Assembly (NCBI RefSeq): GCF_009914755.1
Contig: NC_060936.1
Reading direction: 5' to 3' (one strand)
From: the human T2T-CHM13v2.0 reference genome, Homo sapiens
Length of the DNA: 64,000 nucleotides
Shown: piece after piece, positions 30,067 to 36,192 of the stretch
Layout of the letters: every line of letters starts with the position of its first letter
Position numbering within the stretch: the stretch's first letter is position 1
Translations under genes and position numbers: made by a program
The notes under the pieces: generated by a model
Database searches by the model: none
What the model was told of the DNA's origin: nothing
The model's input: only the letters and a program-made list of their open reading frames with translations

Positions 30067-30152
30067 TCACCGACGCCGAATGGGCTTGTAGACACAAAAT
30101 GCCATAAGGATGACAGTCACCAGCAGGATGCTGAAAATGGTTCCCATCAACA
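30067..30152 (-). CDS. C12orf76: C12orf76 microprotein exon 2: TM helix plus basic tail
   Basis: Minus strand cctgttttccctttgcag|TG TTG ATG GGA...CGG CGT CGG TGA; (V)LMGTIFSILLVTVILMAFCVYKPIRRR*; phase matches the donor at 36060. Confidence 0.85.
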
Positions 30153-30468
30153 CTGCAAAGGGAAAACAGGTTACTTCCTAATGGCAGCTCCAGGTTAGGC
30201 AATTCATCCACTCACTGCCAATGATTTATCAAATGCCACTTGCTGCCAGGCACTATGTCAAGTGCTGTGCAAACAGCTGTAAACAGATCCTCTCTCCAGT
30301 TGTCTCTAAATATAGTTGGGGGAGAAACAAACAGATGAGAGCATTTCACATAGCTTGATATACCGTGAAAAAAAAAAACAGTAACATGCTAGGGATGGAG
30401 ACAGGGTGGGCAGCAAGAAGGGGGGACAGTCAGGAAGCATCCGAGGAGGAGACTCACAAACTAAGACA

Positions 30469-33400
30469 GGCCGAGTGTGGTGGCTCGTGTCTGTAATCTC
30501 AGCACTTTGGGAGGCCTAGGTGGGTGGATCACTTGAGGTCAGGAGTTCGAGACTAGCCTGGCCAACATGGTGAAACCCCGTCTCTACTAAAAATACAAAA
30601 ATTGGCCAGGTGTGGTGGCATCCGCCAGCTACTCAGGAGGCTACTCCTGAGCTACTCAGCTACTCAGGAGGCTGAGGCAGGAGAATCGCTTGAACCCGAG
30701 AGGCGGAGGTTACAGTGAGCCGAGATTGCGCCACTAAGCGACAGAATGAAACTCCACCTCAAAAAAAAAAACAACAACAAAAAACTGAGACCTTACGAGT
30801 GAGGCTCTGCAGGGAGCATGCTGCAGGCCCACAGATCAGCTAAGGAAGGGCCTTGAGGCCAGTATAAGCCCAATACACTCAGTGAACAGAAGGGAGGCAA
30901 CCAGGCAAGGAGTGCAGGAAGAGAGGCAGGAAATCAGGCCAGAAAGGAAGGCTGGGGCTGGTCTGTGCAAGGCCTTGGAGACCATGAAGAAAACACGGAT
31001 TTTAAGTTTAAAGAGAAGCCACTAGGGGGCTGTAGGCAAAGGAATGACATCATCTGATTTAGTCGGAAAAAAAAAAAAAGATTCCTCTGGCTTTTGTGTG
31101 GAGAATTGTTTGACTATAGGGGAGCAAGAGAGCAGGATGCCCAACTATGCCTTTAAAGCCATTAATAAAAACCTGGAGATTCAATAAAGTATTTCAGTCT
31201 CAAGATGAGTCTTGACAGGGCCTTTTGAGCAAAGAAGCAACTAACTCACAAATCTGCTATGTTTGGCTGGGTGCGGTGGCTCATGCCTGTAATCCCAGCA
31301 CTTTGGGAGGCCGAGGCAGGCGGATCACGAGGTCAGGAGTTCGAGACCAGCCTGGCCAATATAGTGAAACCATGTCTCTACTAAAAATACAAAAAAAATT
31401 AGCCAGGTGTGGTGGTGTGTGCCTGTAGTCCCAACTACTCAGGAGGCTGAGGCAGGAGAATTGCTTGAACCCAGGAGGCAGAGGTTGCAGTGAGCCAAGC
31501 TTATACCACTGCACTCCAGCCTGGGCAATAGAGGGAGACTCTGTCTCAAAAAAAAACAAAAACAAACAAAAAAAAAAATGTTACGTTTTTAAGACTAAAT
31601 TTCACATCTGAAATTTTCAAGGTGCTCAGGTGAGAAATGGGAACTACAACTGATTACTCAAGTTGAGCCCTGGTGATACAGGATAAGGACCTGGGCTTTA
31701 AACTACTACATAACAAAAAAAAAAAAATAAAGAAAAAAAAAAACTAGCGTAACCAGCAACCTGTCAGAGGTTTCTTCAACAGCAGCAGTGATACGCAATC
31801 TTGTTTCTGTAACTATCTCAGCGATCTTGGGAAGCATTCAAAACAAGCAAATGTACACTGATGTGTGTCTGTAGGGATGTGGGCCCATCCCAGGTTCCAG
31901 CTAGGGCCTAACCATGGTTGTTCTTCAGTCTCATTACTGTTCCTTTGAAAAACCAAGATTTAGCCAGGCAAGGGGGCTCATGCCTATAATCCCAGCACTT
32001 TGGGAGGCCAAGGCAGGCAGATCACGAGGTCAGGAGTTTGAGACCAGCCTGGCCAACATGGTGAAACCCCATCTCTACTAAAAATACAAAAATTAGCCGG
32101 ACATGGTGGCGGGCACCTGTAATCCCAGCTACTCAGGGGGCTGAGGCAGGAGAATCGCTTGAACCCCAGACGCGGAGGTTGCAGCGAGCCGAGATCGCAC
32201 CATTGCACTCCAGCCTGGGCGACAGGGACTCTGTCAAAAAAAAGAAAACAAAACAAAAGAAAAACCAAGATTTGACCATAGTTTTATTTAAATCAGTAAC
32301 TTTGTAGTATCTGTGACCCCCCCACCCCACACACACCCTCCACGCTTAAACCGGTTATTATTTTAAAACCGACTATACAGAAAAATCAGGCCAGGTGCAG
32401 TGGCTCACGCCTGTAATCCCAGCACTTTGGGAGGCCAAGGCAAGCAGATCACCTGAAGTCGGGAGTTCGAGACCAGCCTGACCAACATGGAGAAACCCTG
32501 TCTCTATTGAAAATACAAAATTAGCTGGGCGTGATGGTGCATGCCTGTAATCCCAGCTACTTGGGAGGCTGAGGCAGGAGAATTTCTTGAACCCGGGAGG
32601 CGGAGGTTGCGGTGAGCCAAGATCACGCCACTGCACTCCAGCCTGGGCAACAAGAGCGAAACTCCGTCTCAAAATAAAAAAAAAGAAAAGAAAAGAAAAT
32701 TCATCTTTTTTTGGTGAGTGAGGGGGAAGAAGGAAGGAGAAGGTGACAAAGACAGCATGTCATAACTCCAAAGGCCAGAAGTAATTTTAAGATCTTTGTC
32801 AAACAAAATCTCCAACCTACGTGAACTAAATGTCATGTCTTAAAATAGCCCTTGTTAACTGAATACCTGCCCTAATTTTCAAAAGTCCTGAATTCTGAGT
32901 TTCTATGGTTTGGACTACAATTGGACTTAAAGTTGTCTTATTCCATTTAAGAACATTTTCTTGCATCTCGCATTTTGGAAGAACTCCAAAAAAAATTTAA
33001 AACTCTCGGCTGTGCGCAGCGGCTCAAGCCTGTAATCCCAGTGAGAGGCCAAGGCGGGCGGATCACAAGATCAGGAGATCGAGACCACTCTGGCTAACGT
33101 GGTGAAACCCCGTCTCTACTAAATATACAAAAATTAGCTGGGCATGGTGGCGGGCACCTGTAATCCCAGCTACTCGGGAGGCTGAGGCAGGAGAATCACC
33201 TGAACCAGGGAGTCGGGGGTTGCAGTGAGCCAAGATCGCGCCACTGCACTGGCCTGGCAACAGAGCGAGACTCCATCTCAAAAAAATAAAAAATAAAAAA
33301 CTTAAAACTCCCAAAGCAGGAATGCAGAAGATTGGAATTGGGGAATGGAAATCTACCTTTAAAAAATAAAAAAGGCCAGGCGCAGCGGCTCACACCTGTA

Positions 33401-35835: not shown

Positions 35836-36059
35836 TCTGGCACATATTGAGCACTTGCTGAGAGGCAAAGTTCAGGCCTTCTGCCCCAGGCTTTTGGAGA
35901 GGGAGTCTCGGGGCCCCCTGAGGGGCCTCACCTGCACCCCCCGCACTCACCCATCTCCCCACTCTATCCCCTGTCCGCTCCGTACATGCCCGGCTCCAGC
36001 ACCCGGAGCAGTGAAAGCTCAGGCACTACCCGCCGCCCGCCAGCCCGAGGGCCGCTCAC

Positions 36060-36192
36060 CCAGGTTCTGCCCTCGCAGCACCGCGTACGGCCGGCTCCGC
36101 TCCAGCGGATCCACGGGGCTCGGGGCCTCTGCCTCCCCCACCAGGAGGCTGCAGAGGCCAAGGTACAGCCACGGTAACGCTGGACGCAGCAT
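36060..36192 (-). CDS. C12orf76: C12orf76 microprotein exon 1: signal peptide plus short lumenal segment (72 aa in total)
   Basis: aagATGc (A at -3) in a CpG island; MLRPALPWLYLGLCSLLVGEAEAPSPVDPLERSRPYAVLRGQNL G|gtgagc. Confidence 0.85.

What the first reader, a model, noticed from the sequence alone, without database searches (positions are those of the whole stretch)
30067..36192. 72-aa type-I membrane microprotein invisible to the ORF track
Seen: splicing 36060>30152 gives MLRPALPWLYLGLCSLLVGEAEA|PSPVDPLERSRPYAVLRGQN LVLMGTIFSILLVTVILMAFCVY KPIRRR*. It has an N-terminal hydrophobic stretch ending A-E-A (signal peptidase pattern), about 20 lumenal residues, a ~23-aa TM helix, a juxtamembrane Cys and a basic cytosolic tail (positive-inside rule). 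It also has its own CpG island, Kozak ATG, strong splice sites and a repeat-free 3'UTR. Inference: this, not the 135-aa ORF, is the real conserved C12orf76 product. Its architecture resembles single-pass regulators of pumps and channels; its function is unknown to me.
Basis: partly seen in the sequence, partly recalled or inferred. Interest (0 to 1): 0.75.

Follow-up and report, generated by a model that had tools for sequence, protein, structure and literature searches.

The report
Annotated C12orf76 72-residue membrane microprotein
The two-exon reading frame is real and encodes a tiny single-pass membrane protein conserved from sharks to humans, but it is already the reference annotation of the gene C12orf76, and what the protein does is still unknown.

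Summary
This is the coding sequence of the RefSeq-selected transcript NM_001389625.1 in the hub's table, so the annotation already holds it. A profile built only from orthologues picks out these two exons among 2,866 six-frame pieces of the window (E 8e-16 and 1.5e-7; next best 0.61), and it breaks at the splice junction. Orthologues of about 60-100 residues occur in placentals, marsupials, birds, reptiles, amphibians, teleosts and a catshark. The N-terminal signal-like part varies (2.55 bits per column) and residues 33-72 are strongly conserved (0.90 bits). No Pfam family, solved structure or functional paper was found. Two automatic "FXYD" labels failed every test. My best reading is a small type-I accessory subunit of a larger membrane complex; this is an inference and no partner is known. 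Novelty: already known. Interest is low to moderate, as an uncharacterised, deeply conserved protein.

The parts
35901..36550 (.). CpG-island-like promoter region around exon 1
   Evidence: It is the only stretch of the 64-kb window with GC >0.55 and CpG observed/expected >0.65 in 500-nt windows.
36193..36219 (-). 5'UTR of the RefSeq-selected transcript (27 nt, no upstream ATG inside it)
   Evidence: with the transcript start taken from the hub's table. In-frame ATGs at 36306 and 36300 lie upstream of that start.
36060..36192 (-). Coding part 1: residues 1-44 plus the first base of codon 45
   Evidence: It matches orthologue-profile positions 2-46 with E 1.5e-7.
36124..36192 (-). Predicted signal peptide, residues 1-23 (n-region MLR, h-region ALPWLYLGLCSLLV, c-region GEAEA); the cleavage site is uncertain by about 2 residues
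   Evidence: Hydropathy. High column entropy of 2.55 bits against 0.90 in the mature core. Crude n/h/c and (-3,-1) rule met in 43 of 45 orthologues. SignalP was not run.
36064..36093 (-). Conserved extracellular juxtamembrane motif R-P-Y-A-V-L-R-G-Q-N (residues 34-43)
   Evidence: Counts out of 45: R34 43, P35 37, Y36 40 (the other 5 are F), V38 44, L39 45, Q42 45, N43 43.
30153..36059 (-). Intron (GT...AG), placed between the motif and the transmembrane helix
   Evidence: The orthologue profile breaks between positions 46 and 47 at this junction.
30067..30152 (-). Coding part 2: rest of codon 45, residues 46-72, and the TGA stop at 30069-30067
   Evidence: It matches orthologue-profile positions 47-74 with E 8.3e-16.
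30088..30152 (-). Transmembrane helix, residues 44-66 (LVLMGTIFSILLVTVILMAFCVY); its first 4 nt lie in exon 1 at 36063-36060
   Evidence: Kyte-Doolittle 19-residue mean up to 2.68. C64 and Y66 are invariant and A62 is kept in 43 of 45.
30070..30087 (-). Cytosolic tail K-P-I-R-R-R (residues 67-72)
   Evidence: Counts out of 45: K67 44, P68 45, R71 41, R72 45. The cytosolic side is inferred from the positive-inside rule.
28870..30066 (-). 3'UTR with ATTAAA poly(A) signal at 28892-28887
   Evidence: for the signal. No similarity to the rest of the window (0 hits; control 129).
32117..32230 (-). Repeat-derived cassette exon of other transcripts; including it replaces the transmembrane helix with a 32-residue tail (76-residue product)
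   Evidence: 72 blastn hits elsewhere in the window, the best five at 88-90% identity. The same tail is seen in chimpanzee and bonobo models P0002 and P0004.

Best explanation
This is the genuine, already annotated product of C12orf76.

Shown. It is a two-exon, 72-residue coding sequence driven by its own CpG-island promoter, and the frame is conserved across jawed vertebrates.

Inferred from sequence features and family conservation. The N-terminal 21-23 residues act as a cleaved signal peptide. The mature protein of about 49-51 residues sits N-out, C-in, with an ectodomain of about 20 residues. Only the membrane-proximal R-P-Y-x-V-L-x-x-Q-N motif of that ectodomain is conserved. A 23-residue transmembrane helix follows, and then the six-residue tail K-P-x-R-R-R behind an invariant Cys-Val-Tyr.

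Inferred mechanism (about 0.4). It has no enzymatic or globular domain, and conservation is concentrated in the helix and both membrane interfaces. It most likely works as a small accessory or regulatory subunit that packs its helix and the two interfacial motifs against a larger membrane protein such as a transporter, pump, channel or receptor. The invariant juxtamembrane Cys64 is a candidate palmitoylation site. No partner is known.
For: - Frame and splice sites.
- It is identical to the RefSeq-selected coding parts given in the hub's table.
- Exon-exact recognition by an orthologue profile: E 8.3e-16 and 1.5e-7 among 2,866 pieces.
- Orthologues named 'C12orf76 homolog' or 'si:dkey-234h16.7': 32 hits; 198 hits at E<=1, of which the best 120 were listed; 72 hits including teleosts, frogs, a salamander and the catshark Scyliorhinus torazame.
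- The search of 1.84 billion representatives gave 89 hits at E<=0.001. The 38 sequences I fetched all looked like this family.
- Conservation pattern: 2.55 bits per column for positions 1-23 against 0.90 for positions 33-72. L39, Q42, C64, Y66, P68 and R72 are invariant in 45 of 45.
- Signal-peptide-like N-terminus in 43 of 45 orthologues.
- The language-model neighbours are all small single-pass chordate membrane proteins: TMEM213 0.89, DAP10 0.86, SMIM3 0.87, glycophorin, SMIM24/MAP17. All score under 0.9 and are leads only.
Against: - No partner or function is shown by anything here.
- The helical periodicity of transmembrane conservation is not significant (moment 0.184 against a shuffle mean of 0.105; 8% of shuffles reach it), so no single binding face stands out.
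- No chain of this family is present among 177,635 distinct PDB sequences at E<=10, apart from one spurious Dhx36 match at E 1.6.
- One proteomics paper lists the gene among missing proteins that are 'incompletely described' (passage of PMC10775140).
- Structure and complex prediction could not be run.
Confidence: 0.55

Rival explanations
1. It is a divergent member of the FXYD family and regulates the Na,K-ATPase by binding the alpha subunit the way FXYD1-7 do.
For: - Two of the roughly 200 database records carry the UniRef name 'FXYD domain-containing ion tr...' (P0062 and P0079).
- The overall build is the same: signal peptide, short ectodomain with a conserved aromatic motif next to the membrane, one helix and a basic tail.
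- By eye, Y-x-x-L-R-x-x-x-L-V lines up without gaps with D-Y-x-x-L-R-x-G-G-L-V of the human FXYD exons (sequences).
Against: - Pfam PF02038 matches 0 of 45 family members at E<=10.
- Run over the whole human genome at E<=10, PF02038 gives 19 matches and none lies at this locus.
- No FXYD chain of the PDB matches profiles A1 or A5 at E<=10.
- hhalign of the family core against 8 human FXYD exon translations gives probability 6.6% and P 0.0055, in a register other than the one seen by eye.
- The defining F-x-Y-D motif, the two glycines and the serine (passages of PMC5550679) are absent. The corresponding residues are R-S-R-P, Q-N and hydrophobic residues, and G48 is kept in only 33 of 45.
- The intron position differs. 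FXYD genes carry the end of the motif and most of the helix in one exon; here the intron separates motif and helix.
Confidence: 0.07
2. It is an ER or Golgi resident assembly or trafficking factor, kept there by its C-terminal arginine cluster, rather than a stable subunit at the cell surface.
For: R71 and R72 are almost invariant (41 and 45 of 45) and the protein ends in R-R-R. That arginine-based retention motifs exist is recalled, not tested here.
Against: The arginines lie only 4-6 residues from the membrane, closer than I recall such signals to work. A basic tail is expected from the positive-inside rule alone. There are no localisation data.
Confidence: 0.1
3. It self-assembles into a homo-oligomeric helix bundle (pore-like or scaffold-like) and acts without a heterologous partner.
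For: Conservation covers all faces of the helix rather than one. Small or polar residues G48, S/T49 and S52 are frequent: 33, 44 and 30 of 45.
Against: There is no charged or pore-lining pattern in the helix. G48 is replaced by V, L or I in 12 of 45. The oligomer prediction could not be run.
Confidence: 0.05
4. It is a precursor whose short ectodomain or intracellular stub is released by proteolysis and acts as a signal.
For: The ectodomain of about 20 residues is short enough for direct intramembrane cleavage (recalled property of gamma-secretase substrates). A primate splice form with the repeat-derived exon would give a secreted peptide lacking the transmembrane helix.
Against: The N-terminal half of the ectodomain is not conserved, and the best conserved parts are the helix and the tail. 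There is no dibasic processing site before the motif. The repeat-derived exon can only be lineage-specific.
Confidence: 0.05
5. The 72-residue frame is not the functional product. Either the 135-residue ORF of the long transcripts is, or the locus is non-coding.
For: The long transcripts exist in RefSeq (hub's table) and give a 135-residue ORF. The protein is still a 'missing protein' in one paper.
Against: The 72-residue frame is conserved from shark to human. The 135-residue ORF skips the conserved exon and reads the last exon out of the conserved frame. The gene was flagged as positively selected in primates in 2017 (passage of PMC5737536), which is what a wrong frame would give; that the older coding sequence was the one tested is my inference.
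Confidence: 0.02

Closest known systems
The 'uncharacterized protein C12orf76 homolog' family (zebrafish-type name si:dkey-234h16.7; mouse Gm57857 / mCG19238)
   Same: The window's product is the human member. Residues 33-72 are 100% identical to squirrel monkey, sperm whale and red squirrel, 75% to birds, and 62% to catshark.
   Different: Nothing differs. The family has no Pfam model, no solved structure and no functional study in the library searched.
FXYD ion-transport regulators (Pfam PF02038)
   Same: Small type-I single-pass proteins with a conserved aromatic motif just outside the membrane and a basic tail. A few records of this family are labelled FXYD automatically.
   Different: The F-x-Y-D motif, the two glycines and the serine are missing. 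There was no profile match in any of four tests, and the intron position differs.
Other chordate small single-pass membrane proteins (TMEM213, SMIM3, DAP10/HCST, SMIM24/MAP17, PRIMA1)
   Same: Similar size and build. They are the nearest neighbours by language-model features at 0.80-0.89. PRIMA1 is a weak recurrent Pfam match in 8 of 45 members, best E 0.04.
   Different: All scores are below the levels the tools call meaningful and below Pfam cut-offs. The family motifs are absent: no charged residue in the helix as I recall for DAP10, and no proline-rich attachment domain as in PRIMA1.
Sarcolipin / phospholamban-type SERCA regulators
   Same: A hydrophobic stretch of exon 2 gives a weak Sarcolipin match (PF05366, E 0.27, 11.4 bits against a cut-off of 26.4).
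   Different: It is far below the cut-off. Those peptides have no signal peptide and, as I recall, the opposite orientation (N-terminus in the cytosol).

Membership tests
C12orf76 homolog family | Significant full-length match to the family profile, split at the same exon junction | tested here: met
   The A5 profile hits the two window exons at E 8.3e-16 and 1.5e-7, with profile positions 2-46 and 47-74. Phmmer of exon 1 gave 32 named orthologues.
C12orf76 homolog family | Invariant residues L39, Q42, C64, Y66, P68 and R72 | tested here: met
   All are present in the human translation and in 45 of 45 aligned members.
Type-I single-pass membrane protein with cleaved signal peptide | N-terminal n/h/c regions with small residues at -3 and -1 | tested here: inconclusive
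   My own crude rule was met in 43 of 45 orthologues, and in human at A-E-A|P or G-E-A|E. Pro at +1 is a caveat. SignalP/DeepTMHMM were not available.
Type-I single-pass membrane protein with cleaved signal peptide | One hydrophobic helix of about 20 or more residues, with net positive charge on the C-terminal side | tested here: met
   Kyte-Doolittle mean of 2.68 for residues 44-62, and the tail KPIRRR.
FXYD (PF02038) | Invariant extracellular F-x-Y-D motif | tested here: not met
   The juxtamembrane motif is R-P-Y-x-V-L-x-x-Q-N with no F-x-Y-D. The feature definition comes from passages of PMC5550679.
FXYD (PF02038) | Two conserved glycines and a serine in or at the transmembrane segment | tested here: not met
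   Only G48 is partly kept (33 of 45). Q42-N43 sit where the human FXYD exons have G-G, and there is no serine at the cytosolic end.
FXYD (PF02038) | Match to the family profile | tested here: not met
   0 of 45 members at E<=10. None of the 19 genome matches lies at this locus. hhalign probability is 6.6%. No FXYD chain of the PDB matches at E<=10.
FXYD (PF02038) | Binding to and modulation of the Na,K-ATPase | not testable with these tools
   Needs co-purification and pump assays.
PRIMA1 (PF16101) | Profile match over the cut-off, and a proline-rich attachment domain | tested here: not met
   8 of 45 members match weakly, best E 0.04. No proline-rich domain is seen in the alignment.
Sarcolipin (PF05366) | Profile match over the cut-off | tested here: not met
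   E 0.27, 11.4 bits against a cut-off of 26.4, over 11 residues only.

The most novel reading that the evidence does not exclude
The C12orf76 microprotein is a so far unrecognised obligatory or regulatory single-helix subunit of an ion pump, transporter or channel. It would be a functional analogue of FXYD or MAP17-type subunits that arose independently in early jawed vertebrates. Its partner would be recognised through the invariant Q-N and C-V-Y-K-P membrane-interface motifs.
Probability: 0.15. Interest if true: 0.6.

Novelty: already known. Interest (0 to 1): 0.3.

Why it matters
What remains open is the biology. The mature protein of about 50 residues has kept 50-100% identity over its last 40 residues from shark to human. 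It has no family assignment, no solved structure and no functional paper in the library searched. Only two peptides look suitable for mass spectrometry, which may explain its 'missing protein' status. The locus shows up as an expression or methylation signal in schizophrenia, migraine and insulin-resistance studies (passages seen), and those studies cannot be interpreted without knowing the product. Finding its membrane partner would be a modest but real addition.

Tried and rejected
- FXYD membership was rejected after four tests.
- Pfam on the single exons and on full-length orthologues gave only sub-threshold transmembrane-type matches: Sarcolipin, DUF3149, PRIMA1, DUF3671 and TNFRSF12A.
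- The PDB sequence search with two profiles found nothing except Dhx36 at E 1.6, which is spurious.
- ESM Atlas neighbours, both for the whole protein and for residues 24-72, all score under 0.9 and are leads only. FXYD is not among the rows shown.
- The helical-face analysis of transmembrane conservation was not significant.
- Literature:
  - 37 papers hold 'C12orf76'; 35 were listed, and I saw passages in 8. All are gene-list, eQTL or screen mentions.
  - A ciliogenesis RNAi screen lists the gene under 'unknown function'.
  - A PrP screen could not test it because its primers did not work.
  - A computed cilia interactome predicts it as a partner of CCDC63.
  - Orthologue names gave 1 unrelated paper.
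  - Three peptide motifs gave 0 papers.
- Supplementary tables, for example Ribo-seq or PhyloCSF catalogues, were not searched and may hold evidence.
- Codon-level conservation (dN/dS, PhyloCSF) could not be computed, because no vertebrate DNA other than this genome is held.
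Full report
**1. The observation.**
On the minus strand an ATG at 36192 opens a frame that runs to 36060, where the sequence reads G|GTGAGC. At 30152 a polypyrimidine tract and CAG (TTTTCCCTTTGCAG|TG) precede the second coding part, which ends with TGA at 30069-30067.

Hydropathy shows two hydrophobic segments. The N-terminal one has a 19-residue mean of 1.34. The strong one has a mean of 2.68 for residues 44-62.

The start context GAAGATGC has the -3 purine but C at +4. 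The 27-nt 5'UTR of the annotated transcript holds no other ATG.

These coding parts are exactly the ones the hub's table gives for the RefSeq-selected transcript NM_001389625.1. The feature is real, and it is already in the reference annotation.

**2. Is it more than chance?**
I built an HMM from 45 orthologues, none from this window, and ran it with filters off over all 2,866 six-frame stop-to-stop pieces of the window.
- It hit only minus 30177-30070 (E 8.3e-16, profile positions 47-74) and minus 36342-36022 (E 1.5e-7, positions 2-46).
- The third best piece had E 0.61.
- The profile breaks exactly at the proposed splice junction.

**3. Surroundings.**
- *3' end:* an ATTAAA at 28892-28887 ends 17 nt before the annotated 3' end. 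The 3'UTR shares nothing with the rest of the window, while a repeat stretch used as control has 129 hits.
- *ORF lists:* the unspliced 95-residue ORF at 36019-36306 contains exon 1 and starts at in-frame ATGs (36306, 36300) that lie upstream of the annotated transcript start. Primate gene models of 108-110 residues use this extension. Non-primate models mostly start at the ATG of the 72-residue form.
- *The 135-residue ORF:* it can be rebuilt only from exons 61121-61334, 53562-53735, 46686-46861, 44886-44993 and 28870-30152. It skips exon 36060-36219 and reads the last exon in a different frame.
- *Cassette exon:* 32117-32230 is repeat-derived, with 72 hits elsewhere in the window, the best five at 88-90% identity. 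Including it gives a 76-residue product without the transmembrane helix, the same as chimpanzee and bonobo models.

**4. Relatives.**
- Exon 1 alone found 32 proteins, mostly 72 residues long and named 'C12orf76 homolog'.
- A profile of 23 placental sequences found 198 proteins at E<=1. The best 120 were listed and include marsupials, turtles, lizards, tuatara and birds.
- An amniote profile over 1.84 billion representatives found 89 hits at E<=0.001. I fetched 38 of them, and all are of this family, either as fragments or as degenerate copies.
- A profile of the distant members found 72 hits. They include teleosts (several named si:dkey-234h16.7), many frogs, Xenopus tropicalis, a salamander and the catshark Scyliorhinus torazame, a chondrichthyan.
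- I found no lamprey, hagfish or invertebrate member. For so small a protein this is weak evidence of absence.
- Human residues 33-72 are 50-100% identical (median 65%) to the 45 aligned members.

**5. Anatomy of the family.**
In the 45-sequence alignment the first 23 positions average 2.55 bits of entropy, positions 24-32 average 2.51, and positions 33-72 average 0.90. L39, Q42, C64, Y66, P68 and R72 are invariant. R34, V38, N43, L44, V45, L54, A62, V65, K67 and R71 are kept in at least 90%.

This gives two conserved membrane-interface blocks joined by a conserved helix:
- R-P-Y-x-V-L-x-x-Q-N-L-V-L on the outside;
- A-x-C-V-Y-K-P-x-R-R-R on the inside.

The variable N-terminus still behaves like a signal peptide. 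By a crude rule of my own, 43 of 45 members have an uncharged stretch of at least 7 residues followed by a (-3,-1) small-residue site. SignalP could not be run.

The helical periodicity of conservation within the helix is not significant (0.184 against 0.105; 8% of shuffles reach it).

**6. How it most likely works.**
- *Shown:* a conserved coding frame, one strong hydrophobic helix, a basic C-terminal tail and a variable hydrophobic N-terminus.
- *Inferred:* signal peptide cleavage, N-out/C-in topology, and a mature protein of 49-51 residues.
- *Inferred mechanism (about 0.4):* there is no room for a fold of its own, and selection is concentrated on the helix and both interfaces. The protein most likely acts as an accessory or regulatory subunit packed against a larger membrane protein. 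Cys64 is a candidate palmitoylation site, and the Q-N pair is a candidate for polar helix contacts.
- *Rivals:* a divergent FXYD (0.07), an ER/Golgi assembly factor using the arginine tail (0.10), a homo-oligomer (0.05), a proteolytic precursor (0.05), and 'not the real product' (0.02).

**7. Comparison with known families.**
Pfam has no model for it. The single exons and three full-length orthologues gave only sub-threshold matches. Over 45 members the only recurrent one is PRIMA1, in 8 of 45 with best E 0.04. No PDB chain matches.

Two UniRef names call members 'FXYD domain-containing ion tr...', and a 2018 paper mentions an 'ion channel activity' GO link. I tested this label.
- PF02038 matches 0 of 45 members at E<=10.
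- Over the whole human genome PF02038 gives 19 matches at E<=10. Those over the cut-off lie on contigs 10, 11, 19 and 23, and none is at this locus.
- hhalign of the family core against 8 human FXYD exon translations gives probability 6.6%.
- The F-x-Y-D motif, the two glycines and the serine that define the family (passages of PMC5550679) are absent.
- The intron here separates motif and helix, whereas FXYD genes carry both in one exon.

By eye Y-x-x-L-R-x-x-x-L-V lines up with D-Y-x-x-L-R-x-G-G-L-V, which may explain the automatic labels. Membership is not met. A function like that of FXYD is not excluded.

Language-model neighbours (TMEM213, SMIM3, DAP10, SMIM24, glycophorin) all score under 0.9.

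**8. Literature.**
37 papers in the library hold 'C12orf76', and none has it in the title. The passages I read are list or eQTL mentions.
- A missing-protein paper calls it 'incompletely described'.
- A 2017 primate scan lists it as positively selected. I take this, by inference, as a symptom of the older wrong frame.
- It appears as a migraine TWAS hit described as 'poorly characterized ... predicted membrane-associated'.
- It appears in schizophrenia eQTL co-localisation and as an adipose methylation QTL.
- A ciliogenesis RNAi screen lists it under 'unknown function', and a PrP screen could not test it.
- A computed cilia interactome lists it as a predicted partner of CCDC63.
- Orthologue names and peptide motifs gave nothing relevant.
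- Supplements were not searched.

**9. Verdict.**
It is the reference coding sequence, so novelty is 'already known'. Interest is 0.3. The protein is a deeply conserved, unstudied membrane microprotein worth an experiment, but nothing here is unexpected for a specialist who looks at the current annotation.

Noticed in passing
L001 (G000:C12:50769516-50769722, minus) and L002 (G000:C6:78520877-78521086): The human genome has two intronless copies of the 72-residue coding sequence. L001 keeps an open 72-codon frame but has lost the invariant R34, Y36 and R72, and its tail IRRR has become IWCQ, a CpG-decay-like change. L002 has one TAG. Both are most likely processed pseudogenes. Similar degenerate copies appear among the database hits (P0104, P0127, P0137).
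   Followed up: partly
window 32117-32230 (minus): This repeat-derived cassette exon belongs to other RefSeq transcripts. Spliced after exon 1 it gives a 76-residue product with signal peptide and ectodomain but no transmembrane helix. Its stop lies 16 nt before the last junction, so as I recall the rule it would escape nonsense-mediated decay.
   Followed up: partly
window 36300-36306 (minus): Two in-frame ATGs lie 108-114 nt upstream of the annotated start with no stop between. A transcript starting further upstream would add 38 residues in front of the signal peptide, as in the 108-110-residue primate models. That would change targeting.
   Followed up: no
window 61121-61334 to 44886-44993 (minus): None of the upstream exons of the long transcripts lies in a CpG-island-like stretch (the only one in the window is 35901-36550). 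The 135-residue ORF they open ends in the non-conserved frame of the last exon.
   Followed up: partly
window 55905-56378 (minus): A 157-residue ORF ends in a long run of Leu followed by Ser codons. It is a simple-repeat artefact of the ORF list, not a gene.
   Followed up: no
P0062, P0079, P0108, P0066, P0208 (database names): Several orthologues carry source names that look misleading: 'FXYD domain-containing ion tr...', 'C-type natriuretic peptide 1-like', 'quinol-cytochrome oxidoreductase complex cytochrome b subunit' and 'NADH dehydrogenase subunit 6'. Such labels may spread into GO terms.
   Followed up: partly
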